Positions 1 to 28,002 of a DNA stretch of 32,000 nt are shown one piece after another. Position 1 is the first letter of the stretch. Each line of letters starts with the position of its first letter. Both the position numbers and the translations under genes were made by a program. The notes under the pieces were generated by a model. It had not been told where the DNA came from. It worked only from the letters and a program-made list of their open reading frames with translations, and did no database searches. The DNA is from Methanobacteriota archaeon (lineage in GTDB: Archaea; Thermoplasmatota; Poseidoniia; Poseidoniales; Thalassarchaeaceae): positions 1 through 32,000 of the forward strand of contig PBNI01000030.1 in the NCBI GenBank assembly GCA_002723045.1. The letters are read 5' to 3'.

Positions 1-93
1 CCCTTGTTGTCCCGATAGTTCCGTCCTCCTTGGCCCCCCGGGCCCCTGCCGCGGTTGCCGCCGCCCTTGTTGTCCCGATAGTTCCGTCCGCCT
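1..93 (-). repeat. Direct coding repeat encoding the GGRNYRDNKG units of the Gar1 tail
   Basis: cccttgttgtcccgatagttccgtcc occurs at 1-26 and again at 65-90 (26/26 identical, period 64 nt). Confidence 0.9.
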
Positions 94-399: not shown

Positions 400-2451
400 T
401 CACAACCCCCTTCTTCTGAAGAGCACTGCCAAGGAAATTGCTACTACCAGAGAGGGCACTCCCAAAGACGGCAGTGCTCCATCGACCTCATCGGCGTCAT
501 CAGGTATTTCTGGATCTACTAGTTCTTCCATCAGTAAAGCAACATCTACGGTCGTGCTAGATGAAGTGCACTTGCCGGACTGGTCACAACCTGTGACATC
601 CACATTGATGACTCCAGAGGAAAACTCACTCATATCAATCCATTCGCTCTCCCAAGTATTGCCGGAGACCATAATCTGACCAATCTCCTGTCCATCAACC
701 TCAATCGTGAAAGTCACTGGCTCGCCATCCGGATCGCTATATTGCCCACCGACTCTCCACATAGTCCCATCAAACTCTCCCATTCCACTAATGGTCATAG
801 AGGGGGCTGTGCTTTCCTTCACGATACCAATGTCGATGATATGTTGCAGAGAGAATTGGCCAACCGACACCTCCATCCAGACATTGACTGGACCGGGAAC
901 GATGCCCTGTGGACTCAGGCTCACGACCTGCTGCGGGGAATCTCCTTTTTCGAATTCCTGAATCTCACTTGGTTGTCCACCTTGACTCAGTGCTAGACGC
1001 ACAGTCACGTCTCCACCCCATGAATCTGAAAATGAGATCTTCAGGGGGTGCTGGTCTTGGAGAATTACTTCGGGCGTCGAAATTGAAACAGGGACTCCCA
1101 CGTTCCATGTTCGATTCCCACTGGACTTGCCAGAAGCATCCTTTGCTTCGCATGAAACCTCTGTTACCCCATCCACATTGATCCACATTGACCCATCGAT
1201 GCTCTGTGAAATCTCATTTCCAGCCGAATTGCAGACGACATCTAGGTTGGAAACACCAGACTCATCATCGAACCAAGATGCAATCCCTTCCCAAGATGCT
1301 AACTTGTTCGCTCCTTCCCCGACAACTGGAATCCAAGTCCCATTAACTGGTGCTAGTTGGGTCCAAGTTGGAGCCTCATCAGTCGGAATTGGCGATGTAG
1401 TGAAGTCCGCGAAGACATCCTCTCCAAGAGGCCACTTCTCTCTTGAGAAGTTTGAGTCTAGGGAATAAGTCAGGCTGCCATCGTCATTTGCCAGCAACTC
1501 ATAGCTCGCAGTCCCATCTCCTATGCAACTTCCTCTTATCGGCGCTGTGTCGGTTCCAGGATTCTCCCCATCGAGACCTACGAACCTCCCTTCGCATTCC
1601 TCCCACATGTCCATCCTCAGGTCAGGCATCACTGGGAAAGTGAAGTCCAACCTAGCATTACTCATGTTCGATGAATTGAATGCGATGGTGAAGTCATTGG
1701 GGTCCGTAACACCATCAATCACCATCGTCGCGTTTAGCCAGAGCTCAATCCTGCACTCATCAGCTCCCAAGGACTCGTTGACATCAATGTCACAATCCCT
1801 CTCAGAAGACGGAATTACTGGTATTTCTATACATCCATCTTGGCTGAAACCCTGGCAGTCCCTTGATTGTGAGTGCCTCGTGGGCACTCCGTTGAAATGC
1901 CCGATGTTGGTCTGGTCGTCCTCCCACGTGGTGTTCATCCAACTAACTCCTTCCCCCCCTCTATGAGGGGAGCCATCTCGAATCCCTATTCTAGTGATGC
2001 TATACTCCAGACAATCTGCAGCAATGGAGACCATCGCGTCTATCTCATCAGTGGAGAGCCAACCATCCCCGCCAGAGGGAACAATACCTTCCAGGAAGGC
2101 ATCTAGGTCCTCCCTGATGTCATCAGCCAGTGTCCAGTTTATCCAGGCCCTAGCATCTACCTGGGCAGATTTCCAGTCGTCATTGACACGAACCTCGAAG
2201 ATTGCTTGGTTGTAGATGAAAATATCCTCGAATGTAATGGATCCGCATTGCTCTTCTAGGGAACCGCCACTCCCAAACTGCTCCATTTTTGTTTGTTCTT
2301 TCCTCAACTCTTCCGTCGGTAGATGGAACGTCGAAAATATCAGTATTACGATGACGCAAACTGACCCTAACCCCATCATCCGCATTCCAGTCACTATTGC
2401 CTTCCGGAGACCATAGGACATCATAGTTGCCATGATTGGGAACACAATCAT
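400..2451 (-). CDS. Cell-surface protein of unknown family, with an N-terminal hydrophobic segment and a C-terminal LPSLG-helix-RRR anchor
   Basis: 683-aa ORF with an ATGA start/stop overlap with the upstream gene at 2448-2451. N-terminal segment GLGSVCVIVILIFSTF; acidic body rich in Cys and N-x-S/T; C-terminus GALPSLGVPSLVVAISLAVLFRRRGL. I recognise no domain. Confidence 0.75.
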   Translation of the reverse strand: MIVFPIMATMMSYGLRKAIVTGMRMMGLGSVCVIVILIFSTFHLPTEELRKEQTKMEQFGSGGSLEEQCGSITFEDIFIYNQAIFEVRVNDDWKSAQVDARAWINWTLADDIREDLDAFLEGIVPSGGDGWLSTDEIDAMVSIAADCLEYSITRIGIRDGSPHRGGEGVSWMNTTWEDDQTNIGHFNGVPTRHSQSRDCQGFSQDGCIEIPVIPSSERDCDIDVNESLGADECRIELWLNATMVIDGVTDPNDFTIAFNSSNMSNARLDFTFPVMPDLRMDMWEECEGRFVGLDGENPGTDTAPIRGSCIGDGTASYELLANDDGSLTYSLDSNFSREKWPLGEDVFADFTTSPIPTDEAPTWTQLAPVNGTWIPVVGEGANKLASWEGIASWFDDESGVSNLDVVCNSAGNEISQSIDGSMWINVDGVTEVSCEAKDASGKSSGNRTWNVGVPVSISTPEVILQDQHPLKISFSDSWGGDVTVRLALSQGGQPSEIQEFEKGDSPQQVVSLSPQGIVPGPVNVWMEVSVGQFSLQHIIDIGIVKESTAPSMTISGMGEFDGTMWRVGGQYSDPDGEPVTFTIEVDGQEIGQIMVSGNTWESEWIDMSEFSSGVINVDVTGCDQSGKCTSSSTTVDVALLMEELVDPEIPDDADEVDGALPSLGVPSLVVAISLAVLFRRRGL

Positions 2452-3638: not shown

Positions 3639-4715
3639 CTACTTCTCTAGGTAGGCGCGGATGCCGGGGACATTTGAAACTGCGTCTGAGTAGGTGCCAA
3701 GATGTTCCTCTGCCGTGCTTGCAACCATTCCAGCCGTGTTAAGAACGTCATTCAGGATCTCCCGCCCCTCGCTATCATCGTCAAGAGCCAATAGCGCGTC
3801 TTGAATCCGGAGCATCGTCTCATCATCCATCCTCGCTGGGTCATACATTACTGGATGGCTGGGTGCCTGACCGAAAGAGGGGAGCATGACAATCTCATCC
3901 CTGTCTAGGCACCAGTCGGGACCATCGGGTACGTCATCCTCGTTCTCATCGCAATACAGTCGGTATGCCGTGTCCTTAACCAGGGCAATATCTCCATGAC
4001 CAGTCATCATGCACTTCAGTGCCCCTTTGTATCCAGAGTACTGAGTCCCTCCCTCTGGAATTTCCGAATCCTTATGGAAGAAGCTCGTTACTGTAGCTCT
4101 GAGGGATTCGATTTCCTCGGGATCGCCTTGAACTTCAGCATATCCATTCCCAATCAGATAACCCATTGGTATCAGCATGCCAGCGCTCTTCAGCCAACCC
4201 GTGTGGCACGACTTCTTGCCCTCCATGAGAGCGAATGGGTCGGTGTCAGGATCATCATCAAGGTATGCGGCTGCGATGTCTGAGTCGGCCCTTACCCATG
4301 CTGCAGCGTTGTAGTAGACCCTGCCATCCGGCTTCTTCTCGACGGCGACTACGTCCAAGTCGTACACCTGGTAACCCAACCATCCGGCAGCCCCATCGAC
4401 CATCGCGATCTCTGCATTGCCATTTGCAACCGCCTCTATCGCAGCCACTTCATCAGCTACTGGGTACACTACCACTTTCTCCCCAGTCAACTCGCTGAGC
4501 TTGTCAGCCATCTCTTGTGGATTTGCATCCCAGAATAGGTATGTGTCCTTCACTTCGTAAGCAATCCTGATACAGTCCTCATCATCACCGCACTCGTCGT
4601 AATCCACTGTGAATAATGCCCATAGAACGGCAGATGATAATAGCAGCCCAACAACCGCAATCGGAATACTCCTTCCCTGTAATGCCTCTCTAACTCTGTC
4701 AATCGCTGAACTCAT
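3639..4715 (-). CDS. Transferrin-like / PhnD-superfamily substrate-binding protein with an N-terminal membrane anchor (candidate Fe(III) binding protein)
   Basis: 358 aa. TM segment [19 protein letters not shown]. Motifs [68 protein letters not shown] and AMVDGAAG. Divergent to the phnC/phnE-like genes. Confidence 0.85.
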   Translation of the reverse strand: [358 protein letters not shown]

Positions 4716-4746
4716 ATTTAGACCCGAAACGCATTTTGTCCTTAAA

Positions 4747-4762
4747 TTTAGGGTTACCTAAA
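4747..4762. promoter_or_regulatory. Palindromic operator candidate TTTAGG-GTTA-CCTAAA (DtxR/IdeR iron-box-like)
   Basis: 6-4-6 inverted repeat centred in the 77-bp divergent intergenic region. It is flanked by A/T-rich TATA-like stretches (TTAAATTT on the left, AAATAT on the right), each about 27-35 nt from the respective ATG. The 17-mer ATTTAGGGTTACCTAAA (4746-4762) recurs exactly at 10382-10398. Confidence 0.6.
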
Positions 4763-4792
4763 TATCAAAAGTCAAATCAGACCCGAAAGACC

Positions 4793-5464
4793 ATGCCAGC
4801 GGTAGTTAGGATTAGCCATCTGGAAGTTGGCTTCCAAGGTCATAGCCTGCTTTCCATAGATGATTTTCATGTCAATCCAGGTGAAGTTCTCGCAATTACC
4901 GGCCCCTCGGGAATTGGAAAAACATCCCTCTTGAAAACTATAGCCGGTCTTCTGAATCCAATATCTGGAACAGTTCATGTTTGTGGAGCGACAATACCCC
5001 AGAGGCCAGAAAGAGGATCTATAGGATACATCCCACAGAAGCTAGGTCTGGTCAGGCACTCTAGTGTCTGGTCCAATGTCATGCTGGGTTCGAGAGCAGG
5101 AAATCCTAGATCAACATCCAGGGAGCATGCGATGAACGCTATCGAAGCCATGGGCCTGGGGGAGAAGAAGAACGAGCCGATTAAACGACTCTCAGGCGGC
5201 CAACAGAGGAGAGTAGCTACAGCCAGGACTCTGGCCCAACGTCCAAGACTTATTTTGGCTGATGAGTTCCTAAGCGAGTTGGACGAAGAAACATCAGAAA
5301 GGGTGGTAAAATCGGTACTGGACTATGTACGATCAAACGAAGCTGCCATGATTCTAGTCGAGCACGACGTCTCTCGAGCAAGGGAGATTTCTGATAGGCT
5401 TCTGGTTATAGATGATGGAAGGCTCAACCCGTTCATCACAGATACTTCGGTCATGGAGGTGTAG
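4793..5464 (+). CDS. ABC transporter ATP-binding protein, PhnC-like
   Basis: Walker A GPSGIGKTS, signature LSGGQQRR, Walker B LILADE, H-loop VEHD. I prefer ATG 4793 (MPAVVRISHLEV) over the TTG at 4736, because the extension would cover the operator and promoter. Confidence 0.85.
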   Translation: MPAVVRISHLEVGFQGHSLLSIDDFHVNPGEVLAITGPSGIGKTSLLKTIAGLLNPISGTVHVCGATIPQRPERGSIGYIPQKLGLVRHSSVWSNVMLGSRAGNPRSTSREHAMNAIEAMGLGEKKNEPIKRLSGGQQRRVATARTLAQRPRLILADEFLSELDEETSERVVKSVLDYVRSNEAAMILVEHDVSRAREISDRLLVIDDGRLNPFITDTSVMEV

Positions 5465-5488
5465 TTTTGGCAAAAATTTTGGCAAAAA
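5465..5488 (+). repeat. Perfect 12-nt tandem duplication TTTTGGCAAAAA x2 at the phnC stop / phnE start junction
   Basis: Read directly from the sequence. It encodes MAKI-LAKI and supplies two in-frame TTG codons (5467, 5479). Confidence 0.9.
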
Positions 5489-6327
5489 TTGACTCAGAAC
5501 TAAGGGAGTTGATAGTTTCCGTCGCAGTCCTACTATTAACATTCAGGATTCTACTGGAACTGACCTCCGGAATAGTCTGGGATTGGAATGGGTGGAGTGT
5601 AATTGAACCCCAATCTTACCCTCCTTGTGAAGCAAACAGGTTTCTACAGTTCACATGTTCAACAGCATGGATCGGAATGATTGAAACAATAAAGATTGCA
5701 ATACTCGCAACCTTCTTCGGTATGATCCTGTCATTGCCCATGGGCCTCCTTAGCTCAAGAAACCTGTTCCCGCAATACATCACCTATCCTTCCCGGGCTG
5801 TAGTCTCAGCATGTCGGAGCCTACCAAGTCTGATTTGGGCCATTATCTTCGTCATCTTGGTGGGACTAGGCCCCACAGCAGGAATAATGGCAATGACCAT
5901 TTACACAGTAGGCTATCTCGGAAAGATGCAGTACGAGGCAATTGAGGGGATGAATAGCGCGCCACTTGAGGCGGCGAACGCCATGGGCCTGACCAAAGCG
6001 GAGTTATCACTGTGGGTGGTTATCCCAGAAATGGCAAATCACCTAATTGCCCAGATGATTTTCATGTTCGAATACAACGTCAGATCTGGGACTGTAATAG
6101 GGATAGTCGGAGCAGGTGGAATTGGATATTACATCAACCTCTATCTGAAGTTCCTCCAATATGAAAAGGTTGGAGCTTATCTTCTGATAATCTTCTTGGT
6201 TGTGATGCTGATCGATTTGGTCTCCATCTATCTTCGCTCATTCTTCACCGACGAGTCCGAAAACAGCAAGCCCACTTGGACAGGAGTATTCTTGCCTCAG
6301 TACGAGAAAACTATCCTATCCGAATGA
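5467..6327 (+). CDS. ABC transporter permease, PhnE-like
   Basis: 286 aa, multi-TM. EAANAMGLTKAELSLWVVIPEMANHLIAQMIFMFEYNVRSGTVIGIVGAGGIGY matches the PhnE-type EAA loop and the NVR..GAGGIG signature. TTG start 3 nt after the phnC stop. Confidence 0.85.
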   Translation: MAKILAKIDSELRELIVSVAVLLLTFRILLELTSGIVWDWNGWSVIEPQSYPPCEANRFLQFTCSTAWIGMIETIKIAILATFFGMILSLPMGLLSSRNLFPQYITYPSRAVVSACRSLPSLIWAIIFVILVGLGPTAGIMAMTIYTVGYLGKMQYEAIEGMNSAPLEAANAMGLTKAELSLWVVIPEMANHLIAQMIFMFEYNVRSGTVIGIVGAGGIGYYINLYLKFLQYEKVGAYLLIIFLVVMLIDLVSIYLRSFFTDESENSKPTWTGVFLPQYEKTILSE

Positions 6328-6330
6328 GAA

Positions 6331-6558
6331 CTAGTAGTCTGCGACGATTCTGATGGCTCCACCGTCATAGAAGATCTGAATGTGATCCTTGGCCTTCGAG
6401 GAGAGGGCTGCCAGTGCCTCGTAGACTTCCTTCTCCTTGACGTTGAAAGCTTCCGCGGCCCTCTTCGTAGACCACGCAACTTCAACAAAGTCCGACGCGG
6501 AAATCCACTTCAGTAGCCTGGCCTCGAAGTCTGTAAGTTCACCCAGTGCCATAGTCAC
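6331..6558 (-). CDS. Small (75 aa) possible winged-helix DNA-binding protein
   Basis: ORF only. The helix-turn-helix-like stretch TKRAAEAFNVKEKEVYEALAALS is followed by a beta-hairpin-like IQIFYDGGAIRIV. I recognise no family. Confidence 0.45.
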   Translation of the reverse strand: MTMALGELTDFEARLLKWISASDFVEVAWSTKRAAEAFNVKEKEVYEALAALSSKAKDHIQIFYDGGAIRIVADY

Positions 6559-6649
6559 GGCACGGGGAGGGGGGAAATCAAGACTACCCCTATTCTAGGT
6601 AAACCACTCCGTAAATAGTCCAGCGAGAGGGTAAATCACAGAAATTTAT

Positions 6650-8842: not shown

Positions 8843-9259
8843 ATGAACAATGTAGACGTACATCTTGCTGACACAGATCGTTCTACTGCCAGTCGAATAT
8901 TCTGGTTCATTCTCGGCCTCACCTCAATGACACTGGGATTGATTGGTATCCCGGTTCCAGGCCTGCCAACCACCCCTTTCATGATTCTAGCAGCAGCTTG
9001 CTTCGCTCGTTCCAGTCAGAGATTCTATGATTGGGTAATCAATAACAAATTGTTCGGCACTCACGTTAAGAGCTACAGAGAGGGCAATGGAATCCCAAAG
9101 AGGAGTAAGCCGATGATCCTGGCAACAATGTGGACCTTTGTTTTGTTCGCGGTCCTAGTTGCCATTCCAGATGATGTTCCCATCTCCAAGGCCGCCACAC
9201 TGATTCTAGCATTAATCGGGACCATCTTCATTCTTAGGATTCCTAGTTCTGAACATTAG
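8843..9259 (+). CDS. YbaN/DUF454 family inner-membrane protein
   Basis: GLIGIPVPGLPTTPFMILAAACFARSSQRFYDWV is the DUF454 signature. Start uncertain (GTG 8819 or ATG 8843). The 3' end overlaps hemH by 17 nt, convergently. Confidence 0.75.
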   Translation: MNNVDVHLADTDRSTASRIFWFILGLTSMTLGLIGIPVPGLPTTPFMILAAACFARSSQRFYDWVINNKLFGTHVKSYREGNGIPKRSKPMILATMWTFVLFAVLVAIPDDVPISKAATLILALIGTIFILRIPSSEH

Positions 9260-10334
9260 AGAATCCCTTGTCGATCAACTTTGAAAGTCCTGATATCCAA
9301 TCTGGATTATCGTTGAGACATTTGACTACGGAGAAATGATTTCCACCATGACTGATGTAGTGCTCACGGACCTCAATGTCCAATTCCTCCAGCGTCTCTA
9401 AACCGTCAGCCAGGAATGCCGGAGAGACAACAACCACGTCTAGATCCTTCTTCGCCAAGTCTTCCACCACAGATAGAGTGGAGGGCTTCAGCCACTTCGC
9501 CGGCCCCAGCCTACTCTGGAAACTTATCGACCAAGCGTCATCAGACAATCCCAATTCGTCAACCACAGACTTTGCGGTCATACTGCAATGATGGGAGTAG
9601 CACATCGAGTTCGCCTCGTCCCTTCGGGCACAGCAACCGTCAACTTTCTGGCAGTATGAACCGGTTTTGTCAGCCCTCTTGACATGAGATATTGGCAGTC
9701 CGTGGAACGAGAATAGTAAGTGAGACCTCTCATTTAGGTGGGGTCTGATAGATCTCACCAGTGGCATGATGAACTCAGGCTCTTCTTCGAAGTGGCCCAG
9801 TTCGAAGAGATCCGGACTCCAACCAATTTCTCTCAATTGCCGAAAAGCCTCTTTCATAGAAGACTCAGTCGTGGCTTGAGCATGGTGTGGGAAAAGCGGA
9901 GCCAGTAGCAACTCCTCAACCCCTTCGGATCTGAGACTCTGCAAAGCAGATCCGATGCTCGGATTGCCATACCTCATCCCTACCTCGCACGCTACGTCCC
10001 CCATCTCCAATTGGAGCTTCTCAGCCATTCTTCTGGTATAGACTCGGAGAGGAGAATCACCATCCATCCAGATACTAGCATACCTTGGTGCTATGTTTCT
10101 CGGCCTAATCCTCAGAATTACCCCCCTAACCAGAAGATGCCTTAGTATGGTAGGAATGTCAATGACATCTGGATCCAGCAAGAATTCTCTCAAGTACTCC
10201 CTGACTGAACCCACGGTCGCCTCATCGGGCGTTCCAATGTTCATCAGCAGAACGCCTCTTTTTACCACAAACTCCACGCTCCAAAATCTAGTTATAATCG
10301 TAAGTTTCAGAAACTCTGTTTTCGAAAATAACAT
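9243..10334 (-). CDS. hemH: Ferrochelatase with an internal Cys-rich insert
   Basis: GVLLMNIGTPDEATVGSVREYLREFLLDPDVIDIP, SLRSEGVEELLLAPLFPHHAQATT and LLFSFHGLP are ferrochelatase-like. Start uncertain: GTG 10361, ATG 10334, or GTG codons near 10283-10295 just before VKRGVLLMN. Confidence 0.85.
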   Translation of the reverse strand: MLFSKTEFLKLTIITRFWSVEFVVKRGVLLMNIGTPDEATVGSVREYLREFLLDPDVIDIPTILRHLLVRGVILRIRPRNIAPRYASIWMDGDSPLRVYTRRMAEKLQLEMGDVACEVGMRYGNPSIGSALQSLRSEGVEELLLAPLFPHHAQATTESSMKEAFRQLREIGWSPDLFELGHFEEEPEFIMPLVRSIRPHLNERSHLLFSFHGLPISHVKRADKTGSYCQKVDGCCARRDEANSMCYSHHCSMTAKSVVDELGLSDDAWSISFQSRLGPAKWLKPSTLSVVEDLAKKDLDVVVVSPAFLADGLETLEELDIEVREHYISHGGNHFSVVKCLNDNPDWISGLSKLIDKGFSNVQN

Positions 10335-10382
10335 TTCTATTGAACAAATCAATATGGTCACTGCAGTAGAACAAAATTGAGA

Positions 10383-10398
10383 TTTAGGGTTACCTAAA
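10383..10398. promoter_or_regulatory. Second copy of the palindromic box TTTAGG-GTTA-CCTAAA
   Basis: Identical to 4747-4762. Lies in the hemH / lipoprotein divergent intergenic region, followed by the TATA-like TTATAA at 10401-10406. Confidence 0.6.
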
Positions 10399-10425
10399 AA
10401 TTATAAGACATACTTTGTGCGGAGG

Positions 10426-10441
10426 TTTAGGGTGCCCTAAA
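10426..10441. promoter_or_regulatory. Third box, perfect 7-2-7 palindrome TTTAGGG-TG-CCCTAAA, abutting the lipoprotein ATG
   Basis: Read directly; it ends 1 nt before ATG 10442. Confidence 0.55.
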
Positions 10442-11695
10442 ATGAATGGTAAACTACTAAGCTTAATGATGACAATACTGATGATGGCCTCAGCCCTTGC
10501 TGGGTGTGCAGGAGACGATGTTGACCTGGATGCAGAGGACGGGGGCTACGAATACGCCTCCAACGTCGACAACCACCGCATGCTGATGGGAGATGTCTGT
10601 GACATCAAGGATCTATCTGGAGCATACGACTGGGACGGCGTTAAGGACATCTATGAGAACGGAGAGCACGCAGAGAAGTCCGACGGTTCCTACAGGACCC
10701 TAATGGGCTTCGCTGATGCTTCGGGCAAGAACCACGCCTATGACGCATTCTATGGTGCAGACGGGTCATGGCATGACTTCGTGAACGCCGCCATTAGCGG
10801 TTCTGGGGCATTCGATGGAGAGTCCGACACAGTCAGAGACCAAGCCACAGAGAAGGGAATCCAGAACGGAGTCATGACTGCATACGCAATCCACGAGCTA
10901 AATGCCGCTATTATCAAGGCAGAGGCTGGAAACTGGGGCCCAGATGATGCTCAGCACGCCTGGGACGAAGGATGGGCATTCTATCACGGACCAGATGATT
11001 CTAACCACGACTACGACGGATGCGGTCCATACGCCACTGCCGACAAGAGGGCTGGAAACTTCGGGACCGCCAACTCTGGCGGCACCGCCGCAACTAACGT
11101 AGCTACATTGGCTGCAATGAATGCCGGCCTCACCGCTATGCAGAACGAGGACATGCAAGGGCTAGTCGACGCACGAGATGAGATTCTCAAGAACATCGTC
11201 ATCGTCTATTCACAGGCTTCCGTAAGGTACGCATCGAAGATGACAGACGACCTAGCCGCTGGAGACACCTCAGACTACGACAAGCACCAGGCAGAGGGCC
11301 ACTCCTTCTACAGGGTCATCGAGGCATACGTTGCTGAGTACACTTCGATCTGCTACAACATGGTCTCCCACACGGTATCCTCGGATACCTCACAGGCATC
11401 TTGCGAGGCATGGATGTACTTGGAGAACTACACGTCTTCCAACGACCCAGATGGGGAGGAGTTCACCGGCTGCTACAACTCTGTTACACACTCTCAGCAC
11501 GAGGGAATGTCACAGGAGGAGTGCGAGGCTTTCGGATGGTACGCAAACTACTACTCCGACAAGATCGTAGCAATGTTCGACCTATCCAACGATGGAGACG
11601 CTTCCGCAGATTACGAAGCTGACATCAGGGCTTGGCTACAGCCTGCATGGGATCATTACGGGATTACCGCAGGAGACATAGGAACTCTACAGTAA
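10442..11695 (+). CDS. Secreted lipoprotein of unknown function (candidate iron-regulated metal/haem-binding protein)
   Basis: ATG 10442 gives MNGKLLSLMMTILMMASALAGC (signal plus lipobox-like). Acidic, His/Trp/Tyr-rich and helix-looking. Internal duplicate: ICYNMVSHTVSSDTSQASCEAWMY and GCYNSVTHSQHEGMSQEECEAFGWY. Confidence 0.8.
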   Translation: MNGKLLSLMMTILMMASALAGCAGDDVDLDAEDGGYEYASNVDNHRMLMGDVCDIKDLSGAYDWDGVKDIYENGEHAEKSDGSYRTLMGFADASGKNHAYDAFYGADGSWHDFVNAAISGSGAFDGESDTVRDQATEKGIQNGVMTAYAIHELNAAIIKAEAGNWGPDDAQHAWDEGWAFYHGPDDSNHDYDGCGPYATADKRAGNFGTANSGGTAATNVATLAAMNAGLTAMQNEDMQGLVDARDEILKNIVIVYSQASVRYASKMTDDLAAGDTSDYDKHQAEGHSFYRVIEAYVAEYTSICYNMVSHTVSSDTSQASCEAWMYLENYTSSNDPDGEEFTGCYNSVTHSQHEGMSQEECEAFGWYANYYSDKIVAMFDLSNDGDASADYEADIRAWLQPAWDHYGITAGDIGTLQ

Positions 11696-11815: not shown

Positions 11816-14164
11816 ATGAGAATAGGAATACTGCTTGTATCTATATTACTGATTTCCTTTATCTCTCCAGTAAGTACTTCCGAAGAAACCGAACAACAGA
11901 CGTTCACCCTTTCTGGAAACGTATTCTCCTCTAGTGGTAATCCTGCAAATTCGACTTCGATAAAGGTTGACTCCATGGAGTCAACATGGTCCTCCAACGG
12001 GGCTTACTCATTCGCGGGCATCACTCCGGGAGAGCACACCGTCAGAGCCTACTTCATGAATGATGGACACACTGTGGTGTACAGGAAGATAATTGTAGAA
12101 TCCGACATGGAACTTGATTGGTACGAGGGAAGAAATTGGATTACATTCGAAGTTTTAGAAGATGATACGAACATCCAAGATTCAGAACTCAACACAGTCG
12201 AACTGATTGAGACATCTGAGAATATTTCAACTCAGTCAGGAAGGGGTGAGTTCGGGCCATACCAAATTGGAGAATACTTCACACTGATGGCATACTACGG
12301 AGGAATTGACCAGTCCACGCAGTTTGTTCACTTCAGGATGGAAGCCGGATCTTCTTCAGAACACGGCCCTAATGATTTTCATTTCAATCATGGAAAGAAT
12401 AGTAGGTATGGCTTTCTGACCGATTTATATGGAAACCCCATCGAGGGAGCTTCCGTTATTTACGGATCAACTAGCTCGATAACAAACTCAGATGGATTCT
12501 TCCTTTTCCAGAATCTAGATGTCGGCACCATTCAGAACTTATCTGCTTCTAAATGGGGGTACCAAATAGTTGATCCGATTAGTACCGAGATTACGCACGG
12601 ACAAGGTTGGCTGAACATCACCTCGACAGTAGAGACAAACTTGCCCGACTACGCAAATTTCACCACTCAAATCATTACATCCCAACTGGAACAGATCACT
12701 ATTGATTGGAGTGGTGGGGCATATACTGATTTCTACTCCCTATACCTAGGGGAAGAGCTAGTTTACAGAGGTGAGATGGAGAGTTTTGATTTCCTACCCG
12801 AACAGTCAGGAAACTATCAATTCAGAATTGAATCGACAAATTCTAACGGCTCTAAGATCAATCCAAAGGATTTGCAGGTCATCGTTCTACCTAGCCAACC
12901 AAACTCCGATTTGTGGTCTCCGGGTATGAGTTGGAATTACTCTCTCGTTTCTACTCCAGAATTCTATCAAAACAAGACCTATACCTCGATTGGATCAGAG
13001 TCAATACTGGATTCATTCGGTAACAATCGCTCCTCGTATCTCCTCAGGGTTTCGGACGAAGACTACGAGGAGGGGGAGAAGGCCTTCCGATGGGTGGACT
13101 CGGAGGGCCTCATGACCATTCACACCTTCTGGGCAGATGCCCCTTCGTCGTCTTCTTACTACCAGGAGGGTTTCCTGGGTTGGAACTTCACAGATTCAAC
13201 AGGAATTCCAGTGAACCCCCTCCATCAAGTTGCAGACGGTGAACTCAATCTTCACTTCAATCGGACAAACATTATCGGAGTCCCTGGCCATCCAAACGGC
13301 TACGATGATACCACTAATTCTGTGATTGTAACTCATGGAGTCGAACTAACTACTGCTGCAGGCACATTCACCACGACTCATCTGGAAATCACTGACAACA
13401 ACGATGGCATCGTATCTTGGGAGATGTGGTACAATGAGACGGTTAGGAACTGGGTCAAGATCATAGATAGACTACCAGGTTCTCACTCAGACATGGTTAT
13501 CCGGGAGTTGACCTCATTCGAGGTCCCAATCACCCCCCAATTCATTACTGAAGATAATAGAAACTTTTCCGATGACGATGTAGAGATAGAATGGGCACAA
13601 TTCCCAGGGGCTCAGAGATACAAACTAATTGAGAACGGGCAAGTTGTATACATTGGAGAAGACTCTAGAATAAACCTCCCCAATAGACAGGACGGAGAGT
13701 ACAATTTCCAGATTATTGCAGAGATGACAACTGGTCAGATCATTCAAGGAGAAAAAATTTCTATTGAGGTATTCTTTGTTCTAGAACCCCCTGTATTTCT
13801 TTCCAATTCACATTCTACAATAACCTCGGATGAGTCAATCGTGACTTGGTCATCTGTGGAAGGAAGAGCCATGTATACCGTTTTGGTAATGCCAGAAGAC
13901 GGCCCATCTTACGAAGCATACAATGGTTACGAGAATCAGACATTGCTGGAGGATCTAGACACAGGAATCAATAGAATTCGGGTGAAGGCAACTCTGGAAA
14001 ACGGTAAGGCTTCAGAATTTTCAGACTCGATTTTCATCACATTCGAAAGGTCAGAGGACAACCTCCCCTCCCCATCAGCTCTTTCCACGCTCCTCCTCCT
14101 TGTTTTCGTATCCAGATTTTCAACAACAAGGAGGAATGAAAGTTGGCAACACGATCTAAAATAG
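11816..14164 (+). CDS. Cell-surface protein with carboxypeptidase-regulatory-like and FN3-like repeats and a C-terminal LPSPS-helix-RR anchor
   Basis: ATG 11816 is preceded by GGTGTAAGG. Signal MRIGILLVSILLISFISPVSTS. CarboxypepD_reg-like segments FTLSGNVFSSSGNPANS...GAYSFAGITPGEHTV and GFLTDLYGNPIEGASVIYG...SDGFFLFQNLDVG. Three FN3-like units (IDWSGGAYTDFYSLY.., VEIEWAQFPGAQRYKL.., IVTWSSVEGRAMYTVL..). Its 3' end overlaps the next gene by 22 nt. Confidence 0.75.
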   Translation: MRIGILLVSILLISFISPVSTSEETEQQTFTLSGNVFSSSGNPANSTSIKVDSMESTWSSNGAYSFAGITPGEHTVRAYFMNDGHTVVYRKIIVESDMELDWYEGRNWITFEVLEDDTNIQDSELNTVELIETSENISTQSGRGEFGPYQIGEYFTLMAYYGGIDQSTQFVHFRMEAGSSSEHGPNDFHFNHGKNSRYGFLTDLYGNPIEGASVIYGSTSSITNSDGFFLFQNLDVGTIQNLSASKWGYQIVDPISTEITHGQGWLNITSTVETNLPDYANFTTQIITSQLEQITIDWSGGAYTDFYSLYLGEELVYRGEMESFDFLPEQSGNYQFRIESTNSNGSKINPKDLQVIVLPSQPNSDLWSPGMSWNYSLVSTPEFYQNKTYTSIGSESILDSFGNNRSSYLLRVSDEDYEEGEKAFRWVDSEGLMTIHTFWADAPSSSSYYQEGFLGWNFTDSTGIPVNPLHQVADGELNLHFNRTNIIGVPGHPNGYDDTTNSVIVTHGVELTTAAGTFTTTHLEITDNNDGIVSWEMWYNETVRNWVKIIDRLPGSHSDMVIRELTSFEVPITPQFITEDNRNFSDDDVEIEWAQFPGAQRYKLIENGQVVYIGEDSRINLPNRQDGEYNFQIIAEMTTGQIIQGEKISIEVFFVLEPPVFLSNSHSTITSDESIVTWSSVEGRAMYTVLVMPEDGPSYEAYNGYENQTLLEDLDTGINRIRVKATLENGKASEFSDSIFITFERSEDNLPSPSALSTLLLLVFVSRFSTTRRNESWQHDLK

Positions 14165-17060: not shown

Positions 17061-17115
17061 TAGAAGGATATTATGAAAAATTGGCACATTGGTCCTAGCA
17101 GAAATAGAATAGAAA

Positions 17116-18459: not shown

Positions 18460-20244
18460 CTAAGGCACCAAAAGCACGTTCTCATAAGACCTATCGACTA
18501 GAGGAACTATGAGTTCTGAGAGCGATGTTAGGACGTGGACGGTGCAGGCATTTCCACAGGCCGGAGCTAGGTAGTCCTCACCAGAATCAGTAAGAATAAA
18601 CTTGAGCCCATCTCCAGGACTTACAATAGCATCAATCGCTTGGAATTCCATCATCATAGTGATTTCCTGACCAGGAACAACAGTTTGAGGTTCCGAGCCT
18701 CCCTCGTGGTACCGAACATCCATAGTTGCGTGACCCAGTCTTACGCCCGTTCGTAGGTTTTGCATTTCGATAAAAACCTGCCCTCCATCGAACGAAGGCA
18801 CCGCTGAAAGATGCAACGAGACCAAACCTGAAATGTGCATTCGAAAATCCGGATTTATTTCTGGGCACTCCACTGTAATGCTTTGTCCACCGCCTACCAC
18901 GGGTATTCCTCCCCCGATCACAGAAATTCCACCAACGAAAGCACCATCGTTTCCACAGTCTCCCATGTCCACAAAATAATCCTCGGAGTCTCTTGGGGGC
19001 CAACTTTGCTCTATTCGCCACTCCCCATCGTTCCTTTGAATCTGTGCGACCAAATCCGGCTTGGGCCCCCTTTCCTGTAAATAGTACTCGAACCACTCAA
19101 ACAAATCCTGAGCCCAATCCCATCTAGTCATATTAGCCAGAGCCTCCATCCCATAACCACTATCGCTCTCTTCGTGTTTTGACCACTGGTCAGGGTAGTC
19201 GTGCCCCCATTGCCCTAGCATCCCCCTTACCTCAAAACCAGCATCAACATATTCGGAATACCAATTGGTTCCAGGAGGGCCTCCAAAGACCTGATGAGGG
19301 TCTACGTTCCAATCCTGCATCCCTTGGACCCAGTAAATACTGCCATTCCAATTCATGAATGCCTTGTCTATGTGGCTCCTCTCTTCGTAGTAGTTTTCCA
19401 TATAGGGATCCATCTCTCCACCGATATATGTCACAGGACCAGCAAACAGACCTTCTGCAATGTCCGGACAAACGTTGTCAAAGTCATCAGAATCATAGTC
19501 AACGGTGCTGGAGAAGTAATTCATGTGCATAATCTGTGATCTCGCCTCTGCGCTTCCGTTCTTGTACAATAGTGGATGTAGGGCTGTAGTCCCCGATATT
19601 GGCACTATAGTCTTCAGATGTTCGCTCCCCATTGCCGCAGCTTCCCATTGAGTCGCACCTTCGTAGGATTTCCCATAGAGTCCGACATTCCCATTGCTCC
19701 AATCCCGTGTTCCTAACCACTCTACCGCAGCATGAATTCCCAGACCTTCTCCGTTACCCCTGTAGTCGAAGCACCCGCTGCTCTCTTCAGTACCAAACAC
19801 CGCTACTTGGGCGAATGCATAACCATGGGGAACAAAGTTCTCGAAGATGAATTCTCCTCTACCAGCACTGACAATACTGGTGGGAGCCGACTCGTCTCCG
19901 GGTGTTCCGTAGGAGAAATAAGGAGAAATAACAGCAATTACAGGAACTTTCTCGCCTTCTTCAGTGTTGCTTGGCAACCAGTATGATAGATGAACTTCAG
20001 CCGAACTGGGACCAGTCTCCCAGACCGAAGATGTATCTACTTCTATCAACGCCTCCTGGACATCTAGGGAGTGGAATGGCCCAGGTTCCAGAACCTTGCT
20101 GAAAGATCCGCTAGTGTCCCAACTAATCTCATGCCTATCCCAAATGTCTGGGTAATGATCATCAGTTTTCACTTCTGAACCTAAGCATCCAGAAAATACT
20201 CCACTAAGTAGCAGTGCGACTACTGCTACTGAATGCGCTCTCAT
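18460..20244 (-). CDS. CocE/NonD / X-Pro dipeptidyl-peptidase (S15) family hydrolase, lipoprotein-like signal
   Basis: Signal LLLSGVFSGC. NVGLYGKSYEGATQWEAA (GxSYxG nucleophile elbow); GYAFAQVAVFGTEESSGCFDYRG. Confidence 0.75.
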   Translation of the reverse strand: MRAHSVAVVALLLSGVFSGCLGSEVKTDDHYPDIWDRHEISWDTSGSFSKVLEPGPFHSLDVQEALIEVDTSSVWETGPSSAEVHLSYWLPSNTEEGEKVPVIAVISPYFSYGTPGDESAPTSIVSAGRGEFIFENFVPHGYAFAQVAVFGTEESSGCFDYRGNGEGLGIHAAVEWLGTRDWSNGNVGLYGKSYEGATQWEAAAMGSEHLKTIVPISGTTALHPLLYKNGSAEARSQIMHMNYFSSTVDYDSDDFDNVCPDIAEGLFAGPVTYIGGEMDPYMENYYEERSHIDKAFMNWNGSIYWVQGMQDWNVDPHQVFGGPPGTNWYSEYVDAGFEVRGMLGQWGHDYPDQWSKHEESDSGYGMEALANMTRWDWAQDLFEWFEYYLQERGPKPDLVAQIQRNDGEWRIEQSWPPRDSEDYFVDMGDCGNDGAFVGGISVIGGGIPVVGGGQSITVECPEINPDFRMHISGLVSLHLSAVPSFDGGQVFIEMQNLRTGVRLGHATMDVRYHEGGSEPQTVVPGQEITMMMEFQAIDAIVSPGDGLKFILTDSGEDYLAPACGNACTVHVLTSLSELIVPLVDRSYENVLLVP

Positions 20245-20284
20245 GGTACCTCCACTAATCCATAGGGCAAATAATTGGCGTTGC

Positions 20285-21307
20285 TCACTTCACTTCGTAT
20301 GCCCCGGCCATCTTTCTGACCGCTTCCTCTACCTCGATGTCCCCATCGAGGAGGCTCCCCAGTGTGCTCAGGAATGGAGTGGGACGGCCCATTCTTTCAG
20401 ATCTGTTCAGAAACATTCTGGTCGCTCTAACACCCTCTGCAACCATGTGCATCTCCTCGAGGGACTCCTCCAGGCTCTTCCCCGAACCGAGCTTCTCACC
20501 TAGAGTCCGGTTCCTGCTCCGGGGGCTGGTTGCCGTGACGTACAGGTCCCCTATCCCAGCCGGTCCGAATGCTGTCTTCGGGTCGGCCCCCATCTTCTCG
20601 AGCAGCCCGATCCCCTCGCTGTACCCGGAGAGGACCAGGGCCGCCTTGAGGTTGTCACCGCCTATTGTGTCCTTGAGTCCGTCTACGAGCCCGCATGCCA
20701 GTGCTACGCAGTTCTTGTACGCCCCCCACAGCTCCGCTCCATTGGGGTCCTCCGCGGGCGTAAGGATCAGGGAGTCTGTCGAGAGGCGTTCTGCGACCCT
20801 CTCCGCAATTCGGATGTCGTGGCAGGCAACAAGAGCGTTCGTGATTACGCCACGAGCGACTTCGGGGGCTATGGTCGGGCCAGTCATAACCACTACTTGG
20901 TTGGACAATCCTGCGTCAGAGAGCCTCCTCTCGATCGCATCCGAGATCATCCCGGACCCGCCTTCGTCCGATGGTGCTAGGCCCTTCGCCAGATCGACTA
21001 GCAGATGGGATGGCCTGAGGCTTGGTATGAGCATGTCAACAACCTCCAGTATGACCGAGCTTGGGAGGGCCAGAACCAGAATCTCGCAACTCTCGGTGAC
21101 ATCCGATATCTCCATCGTGCAATCCATCTCTGGGATCTGGTGTCCCGGCAGGTACTTCTTGTTCTCGTGGACCGTCATCATCGACTCGTACACATCCTGC
21201 TCCACCGTCCAGCCCAGGACGTTGTGCCCGTCGTTGCACCACACTAGTGCGAGGGCCGTTCCCCAGTTGCCAAGCCCGAGAACCCCTATTCGTGCCATTT
21301 TAGCCAT
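20285..21307 (-). CDS. gpsA: NAD(P)H-dependent glycerol-3-phosphate dehydrogenase
   Basis: IGVLGLGNWGTALA (Rossmann fold), MTGPTIAPEVARGVIT, GAYKNCVALACGLVDGL, GIGDLYVTATSPRSRNRTLGEKLGSG and VAEGVRAT all parallel E. coli GpsA as I recall it. Confidence 0.9.
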   Translation of the reverse strand: MAKMARIGVLGLGNWGTALALVWCNDGHNVLGWTVEQDVYESMMTVHENKKYLPGHQIPEMDCTMEISDVTESCEILVLALPSSVILEVVDMLIPSLRPSHLLVDLAKGLAPSDEGGSGMISDAIERRLSDAGLSNQVVVMTGPTIAPEVARGVITNALVACHDIRIAERVAERLSTDSLILTPAEDPNGAELWGAYKNCVALACGLVDGLKDTIGGDNLKAALVLSGYSEGIGLLEKMGADPKTAFGPAGIGDLYVTATSPRSRNRTLGEKLGSGKSLEESLEEMHMVAEGVRATRMFLNRSERMGRPTPFLSTLGSLLDGDIEVEEAVRKMAGAYEVK

Positions 21308-21399
21308 CTGCGCGGCGCATAGACCATGTTATGACCCTATGGGGGCCTTTGACACGGATGCGTTGACTTCTTGGTGGGTAATTATTCGCACGGGGCATA

Positions 21400-21484
21400 G
21401 CAGGGGTACCCGAGTGGTCAAAGGGGCTGGGTTTAGGTCCCAGTGCGTAGTGCTTCGCAGGTTCAAATCCTGCCCCCTGCACCA
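21400..21484 (+). tRNA. tRNA-Leu (anticodon UAG), class II, CCA encoded
   Basis: Acceptor GCAGGGG / CCCCTGC. Anticodon stem CTGGG / CCCAG with loop TTTAGGT (TAG at 21434-21436). 13-nt variable arm. T arm GCAGG-TTCAAAT-CCTGC. Discriminator A plus CCA. Confidence 0.9.
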
Positions 21485-27979: not shown

Positions 27980-27981
27980 AC

Positions 27982-28002
27982 TCCTCCTACGAAGTAGGAG
28001 GA
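27982..28002 (-). promoter_or_regulatory. Perfect 9-bp hairpin pairing GGAGGA with UCCUCC immediately 5' of the giant gene's ATG
   Basis: TCCTCCTAC-gaa-GTAGGAGGA on the + strand. On the mRNA strand it reads UCCUCCUAC-UUC-GUAGGAGGA-GU-AUG. Confidence 0.35.

What the first reader, a model, noticed from the sequence alone, without database searches (positions are those of the whole stretch)
4716..4792. Palindromic DtxR/IdeR-like box centred in a 77-bp divergent promoter, flanked by a 10-nt direct repeat
TTTAGG-GTTA-CCTAAA (4747-4762) lies midway between the transferrin-like gene (ATG 4715, minus strand) and the phnC-like gene (ATG 4793). It has the TTAGG-N4-CCTAA arrangement found in the first 14 nt of the corynebacterial/mycobacterial iron-box consensus TTAGGTTAGCCTAACCTAA (from memory). 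A/T-rich TATA-like stretches abut both arms at about 27-35 nt from each ATG. One bound dimer could therefore occlude both promoters of near-leaderless transcripts. Separately, AGACCCGAAA occurs at 4720-4729 and 4779-4788. These copies lie about 30 nt either side of the dyad and 4-5 nt from each start codon, but in direct rather than inverted orientation. I cannot explain this repeat.
Basis: partly seen in the sequence, partly recalled or inferred. Interest (0 to 1): 0.7.

Follow-up and report, generated by a model that had tools for sequence, protein, structure and literature searches.

The report
Iron-repressor operator in archaeal divergent promoter
A 16-bp palindrome lying exactly midway between two back-to-back iron-uptake genes of a Marine Group II archaeon is very probably the docking site of a DtxR-type iron repressor, a site type used widely in archaea. 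The 10-nt repeat beside it looks like coincidence.

Summary
TTTAGGGTTACCTAAA sits at 4747-4762, centred in the 77-bp spacer between a transferrin-like binding-protein gene and an ABC ATPase gene. Two more boxes lie at 10383 and 10426.

The window comes from a Marine Group II (Poseidoniales) archaeon, so the promoters are of the TATA/BRE type.

- In 141 kb of MGII DNA chosen by protein homology, TTTAGG-N4-CCTAAA occurs 18 times. Every occurrence lies just upstream of an iron-island gene. All other spacings and arrangements occur 0 times.
- The box ends 30-31 nt before the start codon in seven orthologues. An A/T-rich octamer follows it directly.
- A tandem-box scan of 185,579 species genomes returned at least 120 loci, about 109 of them archaeal. 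DtxR-family genes frequently lie directly beside the boxes.
- The geometry equals the ChIP-seq motif of Haloferax TroR and the single-dimer IdeR 'half site'.

Best reading: an iron-loaded DtxR-family dimer sits on the BRE/TATA of both promoters and represses them together. I did not retrieve the MGII regulator gene itself. Published data report a DtxR-family (troR) assignment in 220 of 250 MGII genomes.

The direct repeat AGACCCGAAA is real but not conserved, and it is unremarkable at window scale.

This is a new member of a known kind, of moderate interest.

The parts
4747..4762 (.). Box 1: TTTAGG-GTTA-CCTAAA, two inverted CCTAA(A) repeats with a 4-bp spacer. Proposed single-dimer DtxR-family operator shared by two divergent promoters.
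   Evidence: It is conserved in orthologues L103, L005 and L001 and in L007-L010.
4739..4746 (-). A/T-rich octamer abutting the left arm (minus strand TTTAAGGA). Probable TATA box of the binding-protein gene, with the box arm at the BRE position.
   Evidence: Inference from position. The box ends 30-31 nt before the ATG in 7 orthologues, and the first 8 nt after it are always A/T-rich. ATAAA is conserved in L103, L005 and L001; the window reads TTAAA.
4763..4770 (+). A/T-rich octamer abutting the right arm (TATCAAAA). Probable TATA box of the ABC ATPase gene.
   Evidence: yATCAAAAG is conserved in 4 close relatives. It lies 30 nt before ATG 4793.
4720..4729 (+). Left copy of the 10-nt direct repeat AGACCCGAAA, at -14 to -5 of the minus-strand ATG. 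Probably not functional.
   Evidence: Exact. The position drifts in L103, L005 and L001. Chance expectation is 3.6 such repeats per window.
4779..4788 (+). Right copy of the 10-nt direct repeat AGACCCGAAA, at -14 to -5 of ATG 4793. Probably not functional.
3639..4715 (-). Transferrin-like / PhnD-family substrate-binding protein (358 aa). Regulated gene 1.
   Evidence: Pfam PF12974 and PF00405. The nearest solved relatives are lactoferrin and ovotransferrin, E 1e-18. Homologues come from MGII archaea.
4793..6327 (+). ABC ATPase (4793-5464) and PhnE-type permease (5467-6327). Regulated operon 2.
10383..10398 (.). Box 2: TTTAGGGTTACCTAAA, identical to box 1. It lies between the ferrochelatase gene (minus strand) and the FEA1-lipoprotein gene (plus strand) and is followed by TATA-like AATTATAA.
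   Evidence: The distal/proximal box pair upstream of FEA1 is conserved in L008, L009, L010 and many GTDB MGII loci.
10426..10441 (.). Box 3: TTTAGGGTGCCCTAAA (7-2-7 palindrome), abutting ATG 10442 of the FEA1-related lipoprotein. It lies at the expected transcription start.
   Evidence: It starts 27 nt after the end of box 2.
10442..11695 (+). FEA1-related lipoprotein (low-iron-inducible family). Regulated gene.
   Evidence: NCBIfam NF038033, E 6e-110, and Pfam PF07692.
9243..10361 (-). Ferrochelatase, the divergent partner of FEA1 at box 2. The likely true start is TTG 10352, 30 nt from the box.
   Evidence: Pfam PF00762. The spacing argument comes and is an inference.

Best explanation
The palindrome is the operator of a DtxR-family (IdeR/TroR-type) iron-sensing repressor in a Marine Group II archaeon. 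It is the single-dimer form of the site: two inverted CCTAA(A) repeats 4 bp apart. One recognition helix reads each arm, one helical turn apart.

In this spacer the box lies back-to-back against the A/T-rich TATA boxes of two divergent promoters that give leaderless or nearly leaderless transcripts. Each arm therefore occupies the BRE position of one promoter. When intracellular Fe(II) is sufficient, the metal-loaded dimer binds and keeps TBP/TFB off both promoters. This switches off the transferrin-like binding protein on one side and the ABC ATPase/permease on the other. Under iron limitation the repressor falls off and both are expressed.

The same repressor controls the FEA1/ferrochelatase spacer through box 2, which lies on the TATA, and box 3, which lies on the transcription start.

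Shown here: the motif, its conservation, its fixed position, its restriction to genes of the iron island, and its association with DtxR genes in other lineages. Inferred: the identity of the MGII protein, the metal dependence, the direction of regulation and the start sites.

The 10-nt direct repeat is not part of the mechanism.
For: (1) The organism is MGII. The best homologues are Poseidoniales, Thalassarchaeaceae or 'Euryarchaeota archaeon' MAGs.

(2) In 140,983 bp of MGII DNA selected only by binding-protein homology, TTTAGG-N4-CCTAAA occurs 18 times. Spacers 0-3 and 5-10, everted arrangements and direct arrangements occur 0 times. All 18 sites lie just upstream of a start codon, before the Tf-like binding protein, the ABC ATPase, FEA1, ferrochelatase or the 683-aa protein family.

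(3) The box ends 30-31 nt before the binding-protein ATG in 7 orthologues of 63-93% identity. This holds even where the upstream gene differs. The next 8 nt are A/T-rich, while the rest of the spacer diverges.

(4) Among 86 unique MGII sites, which were collected by requiring exact arms, only the inner 4 nt vary. In the independent set, relaxing to 2 mismatches adds only 2 sites. This is protein-type readout, not RNA covariation.

(5) The tandem pattern, with a chance expectation near 0, hit at least 120 loci. My tally from record titles and protein labels is about 109 archaeal: 36 Halobacteria, 34 MGII, 21 Bathyarchaeia, 9 Methanobacteriales and 7 MGIII-like.

(6) In non-MGII loci, 24 of 148 box-flanking ORFs are DtxR family (PF01325 + PF02742 + FeoA domain). 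Others include siderophore aminotransferase, Peripla_BP_2, FTR1, Nramp, FeoB and flavodoxin.

(7) In MGIII, the sister group, dtxR lies divergent from FEA1 with 3 boxes between them.

(8) L213 carries dtxR divergent from a Tf-SBP/phnC/phnE operon whose binding protein is 59-64% identical to MGII ones in the aligned tblastx segments. Five boxes lie in that spacer.

(9) Box-adjacent DtxRs from four lineages share the recognition helix xPASVTEMLxKL.

(10) Haloferax TroR ChIP-seq gives TTTAGGC-NNN-CCTAAA. Tandem sites there mediate iron-dependent repression (PMC10783522).

(12) A DtxR-family KO (troR) is reported in 140/158 + 80/92 MGII genomes (Tully 2019, Suppl. Data 10).
Against: No DtxR-family gene lies in the window or in any MGII locus I hold.

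A HMMER scan of 1.84 billion representatives with the MGIII DtxR found no obvious abundant marine group that could be the MGII orthologue. A metagenome scan for the PASVTEM helix also found none. The MGII reader of the box is therefore known only from a published KO table.

No transcription start sites, expression data or binding data exist. The TATA/BRE assignment rests on spacing, and my survey of other MGII promoters was biased by its tie-break rule.

Other iron-type genes in the window have no box: the second transferrin-like gene, the FecCD cluster, flavodoxin and the HugZ-like gene.
Confidence: 0.8

Rival explanations
1. The box is a real operator, but in MGII it is read by a different protein. 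One candidate is the 73-aa winged-helix protein encoded in the island (6331-6552, minus strand). Another is a regulator family unrelated to DtxR.
For: No MGII DtxR sequence could be retrieved. The 73-aa ORF is conserved in 21 MGII iron-island loci. In L001 and L103 it is the divergent neighbour of FEA1 across the boxes. AlphaFold gives a winged-helix fold that weakly resembles ArsR/SmtB, MarR and the CodY C-terminal domain.
Against: The operator arms are identical to those found beside DtxR genes in MGIII, Bathyarchaeia, Thermoplasmata and Meiothermus, and to the TroR ChIP motif.

The 73-aa protein has no sequence similarity to DtxR. Its putative recognition helix is acidic. The model is of modest confidence (pLDDT 72) and the fold matches are not significant (best E 0.02). 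Its own promoter in the window has no box. Tully 2019 lists troR as MGII core.
Confidence: 0.1
2. The palindrome is nothing more than two back-to-back core promoter elements (BRE/TATA) of a bidirectional archaeal promoter, with no dedicated regulator.
For: Each arm is continuous with an A/T-rich stretch at the position expected for the TATA box of a leaderless gene. TTTA/TAAA resembles TATA-box sequence.
Against: The motif is absent from about 30 other promoters in the same MGII loci. It occurs abutting the FEA1 ATG, where it cannot be that gene's TATA box. It is present in unidirectional promoters (L008-L010). It occurs in a 66% GC genome beside feoA/dtxR.
Confidence: 0.03
3. The 10-nt direct repeat is functional. 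It could be a target-site duplication left by a small mobile promoter cassette. It could be a second regulator's paired sites. It could also give complementary 5' leaders to the two divergent mRNAs.
For: There are two exact copies, placed symmetrically at -14 to -5 of both start codons. Within a 77-bp stretch alone, such a repeat is unlikely.
Against: The repeat is not conserved. At the same positions L103 has AGACTCGGAA and AGTTCCAGAA, L005 has TGGCCCGATA and ACACCCCAAA, and L001 has neither, while the box and TATA flanks are conserved.

3.6 such repeats are expected per window. The 49 bp between the copies has no terminal inverted repeats, and orthologues share it without any duplication. 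If the transcripts are leaderless, the repeats are not transcribed. The RNA fold of the spacer is unremarkable (z = -0.43).
Confidence: 0.05
4. The palindrome acts as an RNA hairpin, for example an attenuator, a terminator or a processing site.
For: A 7-bp stem with a 4-nt loop is predicted.
Against: The fold is no better than shuffles (z = -0.43). In the independent MGII set, relaxing the arms to 2 mismatches adds only 2 sites, so the arms show almost no change, compensatory or otherwise, while the loop varies. The box lies upstream of the expected start sites. Rfam finds nothing here.
Confidence: 0.01

Closest known systems
Haloferax volcanii TroR (DtxR family) cis-regulatory motif, TTTAGGC-NNN-CCTAAAANAN (PMC10783522)
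   Same: The arms and the 4-bp spacing (TTTAGG-N4-CCTAAA) are identical. It occurs singly or in tandem (about 30 bp apart there; 27-37 bp gaps in MGII FEA1 promoters). It lies upstream of iron-uptake genes. In Haloferax it represses in iron-replete cells. My tandem scan found many haloarchaeal loci, several beside class-III aminotransferase genes (PF00202) of the kind found in siderophore clusters.
   Different: The phylum and the regulon differ. The MGII regulon holds transferrin-like binding proteins, a PhnCE-type ABC transporter, FEA1 and a 683-aa unknown protein, rather than siderophore synthesis genes. [quoted passage not shown] In MGII it directly abuts the TATA box 30-31 nt from the ATG. 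The MGII protein is unidentified and nothing has been tested experimentally.
[quoted passage not shown]
   Same: The architecture is the same. It predicts one dimer per box.
   Different: It is bacterial and described as an unusual minor class of site. In MGII, and apparently in archaea generally, it is the standard form. The MGII arms are extended to TTTAGG/CCTAAA.
Canonical 19-bp DtxR/IdeR iron box TTAGGTTAGSCTAACCTAA (Corynebacterium, Mycobacterium)
   Same: It uses the same CCTAA repeat unit. It acts by promoter occlusion by a metal-loaded repressor.
   Different: The 19-bp box has four repeats and binds two dimers. It overlaps a bacterial -10 element or start site. The MGII box has only two repeats and lies on an archaeal BRE/TATA.
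Comparative reconstruction of archaeal DtxR-family regulons (Leyn and Rodionov, J Bacteriol 2015). Recalled from memory; the paper could not be opened.
   Same: It describes palindromic DtxR-family motifs upstream of metal transporters and of the regulators' own genes in many archaeal orders.
   Different: As far as I recall it did not cover the uncultured MGII or MGIII lineages. This is unverified.

Membership tests
DtxR/IdeR/TroR-family operator, single-dimer form | Two inverted CCTAA repeats separated by 4 bp | tested here: met
   TTTAGG-GTTA-CCTAAA at 4747-4762. Only the N4 spacer occurs in 141 kb of MGII DNA: 18 sites against 0 for all other spacers and arrangements. The definition comes from PMC10317159, and the motif matches the TroR motif in PMC10783522.
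DtxR/IdeR/TroR-family operator, single-dimer form | Located in promoters of metal (iron) acquisition genes | tested here: met
   Upstream of the transferrin-like binding proteins, the ABC ATPase, the FEA1 lipoprotein and ferrochelatase in the window and in 41 MGII loci. In other lineages it lies upstream of FeoB, FTR1, Nramp, Peripla_BP_2 and siderophore genes.
DtxR/IdeR/TroR-family operator, single-dimer form | Motif co-occurs with DtxR-family genes, with autoregulatory placement | tested here: met
   24 of 148 box-flanking ORFs in non-MGII loci carry PF01325 + PF02742. MGIII has dtxR beside FEA1 with 3 boxes. L213 and L131 are further examples. This was not seen in MGII proper.
DtxR/IdeR/TroR-family operator, single-dimer form | A DtxR-family regulator is encoded in the same genome | tested here: inconclusive
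   None is present in the 32-kb window or in the MGII loci I hold. Searches seeded with the MGIII protein did not yield an MGII orthologue. The literature reports the troR KO in 220 of 250 MGII genomes (PMC6336850, Suppl. Data 10).
DtxR/IdeR/TroR-family operator, single-dimer form | Operator overlaps core promoter elements so that binding blocks initiation | tested here: inconclusive
   There is a fixed 30-31 nt from the box edge to the ATG, with an A/T-rich octamer directly after the box. The proximal FEA1 box lies where the start site is expected. No start sites have been mapped.
DtxR/IdeR/TroR-family operator, single-dimer form | Fe(II)/Mn(II)-dependent binding and iron-responsive expression | not testable with these tools
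   This needs EMSA or footprinting, or expression data.
Canonical two-dimer 19-bp DtxR/IdeR iron box | 19-bp palindrome made of four CCTAA repeats | tested here: not met
   Only two repeats are present. The flanks of box 1 (ccttaaa / tatcaaa) carry no further CCTAA or TTAGG. Isolated half sites in MGII DNA are not above chance: 36 seen against about 69 expected.
Miniature mobile element with target-site duplication (considered for the direct repeat) | Terminal inverted repeats, further copies elsewhere, and absence from the orthologous empty site | tested here: not met
   The 49-bp interior has no terminal inverted repeats by inspection. AGACCCGAAA has no further copies beyond chance. Orthologues carry the same interior without the duplication.

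The most novel reading that the evidence does not exclude
In Marine Group II the pan-archaeal iron box is read by a non-canonical regulator. I could find no abundant marine orthologue of the MGIII/Bathyarchaeia-type DtxR with its PASVTEM recognition helix. That would mean the operator was kept while its reader was replaced.
Probability: 0.1. Interest if true: 0.6.

Novelty: new member of a known kind. Interest (0 to 1): 0.4.

Why it matters
Marine Group II archaea are among the most abundant planktonic archaea in the surface ocean. They are uncultured, and I found no description of their iron regulation in the searchable literature.

The box gives a sequence-level handle on their iron regulon. 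That regulon holds transferrin-like binding proteins with a PhnCE-type ABC transporter, FEA1 (phytotransferrin-family) lipoproteins, ferrochelatase and a conserved 683-aa protein of unknown function.

It also argues that the 'phosphonate transporter', listed among MGII core traits (PMC6336850), is really an iron-regulated system, probably for ferric-iron uptake. That would change how MGII are placed in marine phosphorus and iron budgets.

The tandem-box scan shows the same operator in Halobacteria, Bathyarchaeia, MGII, MGIII and Methanobacteriales. A single PWM could therefore annotate iron regulons across much of the uncultured Archaea.

Tried and rejected
**Bacterial reading of the locus.** I dropped this once homologues showed an MGII archaeon. 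I therefore did not use the sigma-70 promoter/terminator scanner.

**Looking for the regulator in the window.** Pfam and NCBIfam scans of all sizeable ORFs found no DtxR, Fur or other metal sensor.

**Hunting the MGII DtxR gene.**
- A homologue search with the MGIII protein returned 120 listed hits of 67% identity or more, probably all MGIII.
- A HMMER scan of 1.84 billion representatives, followed by cluster look-ups, found the nearest other clusters in a 66% GC lineage (L131), an orphan lineage (L213), and Woesearchaeota, Methanothermobacter and a probable haloarchaeon.
- A metagenome scan gave MGIII, then hits of about 30% identity whose sample origin I did not check.
- P0248 proved to be an orphan with 4 hits. 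P0438 and P0440 gave uninformative contexts.

**The 73-aa island protein as a 'mini-DtxR'.** There is no sequence similarity, only a generic winged-helix fold.

**RNA structure.** The fold is not significant and Rfam finds only a tRNA in the window.

**Direct repeat as TSD, second operator or complementary leaders.** Rejected on non-conservation and window-scale chance.

**Survey of A/T-rich octamer positions in about 30 other MGII promoters.** Many centre near -23 to -33, but my tie-break favoured -27. I do not rely on this survey.

**Leyn and Rodionov 2015.** The paper could not be opened.

Full report
**1. The observation.**
The sequence is as described. The minus-strand start codon ends at 4715 and the plus-strand ATG begins at 4793, leaving a 77-bp spacer. 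TTTAGG-GTTA-CCTAAA occupies 4747-4762, centred on the spacer. AGACCCGAAA occurs at 4720-4729 and 4779-4788.

The pattern TTAGGN4CCTAA, allowing one mismatch, has exactly three hits in the 32-kb window. All three are perfect, against 0.64 expected from shuffles. The other two hits are at 10384 and 10427. They lie in the spacer between a ferrochelatase gene and an FEA1-related lipoprotein gene. The first is the identical 16-mer. The second, TTTAGGGTGCCCTAAA, abuts the FEA1 ATG.

A position weight matrix scores these three sites at 26-29 bits and the next best site in the window at 2 bits.

**2. What the locus is.**
The window is an iron-acquisition island. It encodes:
- a transferrin-like/PhnD-family binding protein;
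- an ABC ATPase and a PhnE-type permease;
- a second, longer transferrin-like protein;
- ferrochelatase;
- an FEA1-related lipoprotein;
- a Peripla_BP_2/FecCD/ABC set;
- flavodoxin;
- a HugZ-like protein.

The closest solved relatives of the binding protein are lactoferrin and ovotransferrin lobes (E 1e-18), not PhnD.

Homologues of the binding protein come from Marine Group II (Poseidoniales/Thalassarchaeaceae) archaea. The nearest species-level genome in the GTDB collection that I found is an uncultured Poseidoniales MAG with a 92% identical binding protein (L103).

**3. Conservation.**
I fetched orthologous MGII loci by exact-protein look-up. In these loci plus the window, 140,983 bp chosen without reference to the motif, TTTAGG-N4-CCTAAA occurs 18 times. 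The same arms with spacers 0-3 or 5-10, everted or direct, occur 0 times. Isolated half sites are not above chance.

Every one of the 18 sites lies just upstream of a start codon. The genes concerned are the Tf-like binding protein, the ABC ATPase, FEA1, ferrochelatase or a conserved 683-aa protein without Pfam domains.

Anchored on the true start codon of the binding protein, the box ends 30 or 31 nt upstream in all seven orthologues (63-93% identity). This includes those where the upstream neighbour is a co-directional GDPD gene rather than the divergent ABC ATPase. The first eight bases after the box are always A/T-rich, and the rest of the spacer is not conserved.

In the four closest relatives the conserved block is ATAAA-box-yATCAAAAG; the window itself reads TTAAA on the left.

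At FEA1 there are typically two boxes. The distal one is followed by a TATA-like octamer. The proximal one starts 27-37 nt after the end of the distal box and lies within 0-2 nt of the ATG in the clearest cases.

Among 86 unique MGII sites only the four inner bases vary. Those sites were selected for exact arms. In the independent set, however, relaxing to two mismatches adds only two sites. Invariant arms with a free centre indicate sequence-specific protein readout, not RNA pairing. The spacer's RNA fold is no better than shuffles (z = -0.43).

**4. Which protein family.**
A scan of one genome per species (185,579 species) for two boxes 10-40 bp apart has a chance expectation of essentially zero.

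By record title and protein labels, my tally is:
- about 36 Halobacteria;
- 34 MGII;
- 21 Bathyarchaeia;
- 9 Methanobacteriales;
- 7 MGIII-like;
- about 10 bacteria.

Among 148 ORFs immediately flanking the boxes in the non-MGII loci, 24 carry the DtxR-family domain set (PF01325, PF02742, FeoA-type domain). The rest include siderophore aminotransferases, Peripla_BP_2, FTR1, Nramp, FeoB and flavodoxin.

In MGIII, the sister lineage of MGII, the dtxR gene is the divergent neighbour of FEA1, with three boxes between them.

Contig L213 has a binding protein that is 59-64% identical to Thalassarchaeaceae ones in the aligned tblastx segments. There, dtxR is divergent from a Tf-SBP/phnC/phnE operon with five boxes in the spacer.

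A 66% GC contig has a perfect box abutting feoA, divergent from dtxR.

The box-adjacent DtxR proteins from MGIII, Bathyarchaeia, Meiothermus and Methanomethylophilaceae share an invariant recognition helix, xPASVTEMLxKL.

**5. Match to experiment.**
In Haloferax volcanii, ChIP-seq of the DtxR-family regulator TroR gave the motif TTTAGGC-NNN-CCTAAAANAN. Tandem copies about 30 bp apart at the siderophore promoter mediate TroR- and iron-dependent repression, and either copy suffices (PMC10783522). That is the same TTTAGG-N4-CCTAAA.

The IdeR review (PMC10317159) describes the 19-bp actinobacterial box as four CCTAA repeats bound by two dimers. The MGII box is the single-dimer form.

**6. Mechanism proposed.**
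One Fe(II)-loaded DtxR-family dimer binds box 1. Each arm lies where the BRE of one of the two divergent promoters should be, and its outer A/T run merges into the TATA-like octamer. Bound repressor should therefore exclude TBP/TFB from both promoters at once.

By analogy with FEA1, where the proximal box begins 27-28 nt after the distal box, the start sites of the binding-protein and ATPase genes should fall at or within a few nt of their start codons. The transcripts would then be leaderless.

Repression in iron-replete cells and derepression under iron limitation are inferred from the behaviour of DtxR, IdeR and TroR. They are not shown here.

**7. The gap.**
I did not find the MGII regulator gene. 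None lies in the window or in any MGII locus I hold.

Searches seeded with the MGIII protein returned MGIII sequences and then unrelated lineages.

The only positive evidence is published. Tully (2019), Supplementary Data 10 (sheet 'MGII Core'), lists the KO 'troR; DtxR family transcriptional regulator' in 140/158 and 80/92 MGII genomes.

A conserved 73-aa winged-helix protein in the island (6331-6552, minus strand) is a weak alternative reader. It has no similarity to DtxR, and its own promoter lacks a box.

**8. The direct repeat.**
It is exact, but I regard it as non-functional.

At the corresponding positions:
- L103 (92% orthologue) has AGACTCGGAA and AGTTCCAGAA;
- L005 (93%) has TGGCCCGATA and ACACCCCAAA;
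- L001 (87%) has no resemblance.

The box and TATA flanks in the same alignment are conserved.

A Markov model of the window gives 3.6 (sd 2.5) exact 10-mers repeated within 100 nt. The pattern itself is not enriched. The repeats lie between the putative TATA and the start site, so they are probably not transcribed.

The symmetric placement remains a curiosity.

**9. Verdict.**
The element is a new member (the MGII iron regulon) of a known kind (the single-dimer DtxR/TroR-type operator).

Its main value is practical. It defines the iron regulon of an abundant uncultured archaeal group. It also suggests that their 'phosphonate transporter' (PMC6336850) is an iron-regulated transferrin-type uptake system.

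Noticed in passing
window 3639-6327: The MGII 'phosphonate transporter' consists of a PhnC-like ATPase, a PhnE permease and a PhnD/transferrin-like binding protein. It is under the iron box. The binding protein's nearest solved relatives are lactoferrin and ovotransferrin (E 1e-18), not PhnD. It is probably a ferric-iron uptake system, although Tully 2019 lists phosphonate transport as an MGII core trait.
   Followed up: partly
window 400-2451 (minus strand): This 683-aa protein has no Pfam or NCBIfam match. It is conserved next to the GSDH-like gene. In many MGII genomes it is the divergent partner of box-controlled FEA1 or Tf-like genes, so it is a likely member of the iron regulon of unknown function.
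   Followed up: partly
window 6331-6552 (minus strand): This 73-aa ORF, tail-to-tail with phnE, is conserved at 47-99% identity in 21 MGII iron-island loci. AlphaFold (pLDDT 72) gives a stand-alone winged helix with weak resemblance to ArsR/SmtB, MarR and the CodY C-terminal domain. It has no Pfam family.
   Followed up: partly
window 10352-10361: The ferrochelatase ORF is listed from GTG 10361. An in-frame TTG at 10352 lies exactly 30 nt from box 2, the spacing seen at the other box-controlled genes. The orthologue in L005 is 11 aa shorter. The start is probably TTG 10352 or later.
   Followed up: no
window 10415-10442: The FEA1 ORF is listed from TTG 10415, which would place box 3 inside the coding region. 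ATG 10442 is followed by a signal-peptide-like sequence (MNGKLLSLMMTILMMASALA) and is the start supported by orthologues.
   Followed up: partly
window 6553-6649, 14100-14143, 17061-17115: The second transferrin-like gene, the Peripla_BP_2/FecCD/ABC cluster and flavodoxin have no box in this genome (next best PWM score 2 bits). Orthologues of the second transferrin-like gene carry double boxes in other MGII genomes (L043, L046, L072, L078, L079).
   Followed up: partly
L213 4410-4640: On this 52% GC contig, dtxR is divergent from a Tf-SBP/phnC/phnE operon. Five boxes (two perfect, three with one mismatch) lie in the 231-bp spacer, and a ZIP transporter gene is next door. Its DtxR (P0248) is an orphan with only 4 relatives in 5.8 billion proteins.
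   Followed up: partly
L096 and L116 (MGIII), about 100 bp upstream of dtxR: In Marine Group III, dtxR is divergent from FEA1 with three boxes. Two of them overlap at a 15-bp offset (TTTAGGTCACCCTAATTTAGGGTAGCCTAAA). The third, in L116, is the perfect 16-bp palindrome TTTAGGGTACCCTAAA.
   Followed up: partly
L131 9901-9916: In a 66% GC genome of unknown lineage, a perfect A/T-rich box TTTAGGGCAGCCTAAA abuts the feoA start. It lies in the spacer between feoAB and a DtxR-family gene.
   Followed up: no
L108: This 4-kb contig is binned as a Rhodobiaceae bacterium MAG. It carries an FEA1 homologue 52% identical to the window's, with a box upstream. It is probably a mis-binned archaeal contig.
   Followed up: no
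Bathyarchaeia loci (e.g. L016, L017, L023, L031): In Bathyarchaeia the gene most often found divergent from the box-flanked dtxR is serine hydroxymethyltransferase (14 loci). That is an unexpected partner for an iron regulator.
   Followed up: no
window 20000-27000: G+C rises from about 46% to 57-60% across a 2196-aa protein (subtilase plus many RCC1 repeats, 21485-28075, minus strand). tRNA-Leu lies at 21400-21484. I did not examine whether this reflects amino-acid composition or foreign origin.
   Followed up: no
window 1-80 and 5465-5481: A repeat of at least 26 nt with a 63-nt period lies at the very start of the window. A 12-nt tandem duplication (TTTTGGCAAAAATT region) lies at the phnC stop / phnE start junction.
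   Followed up: no
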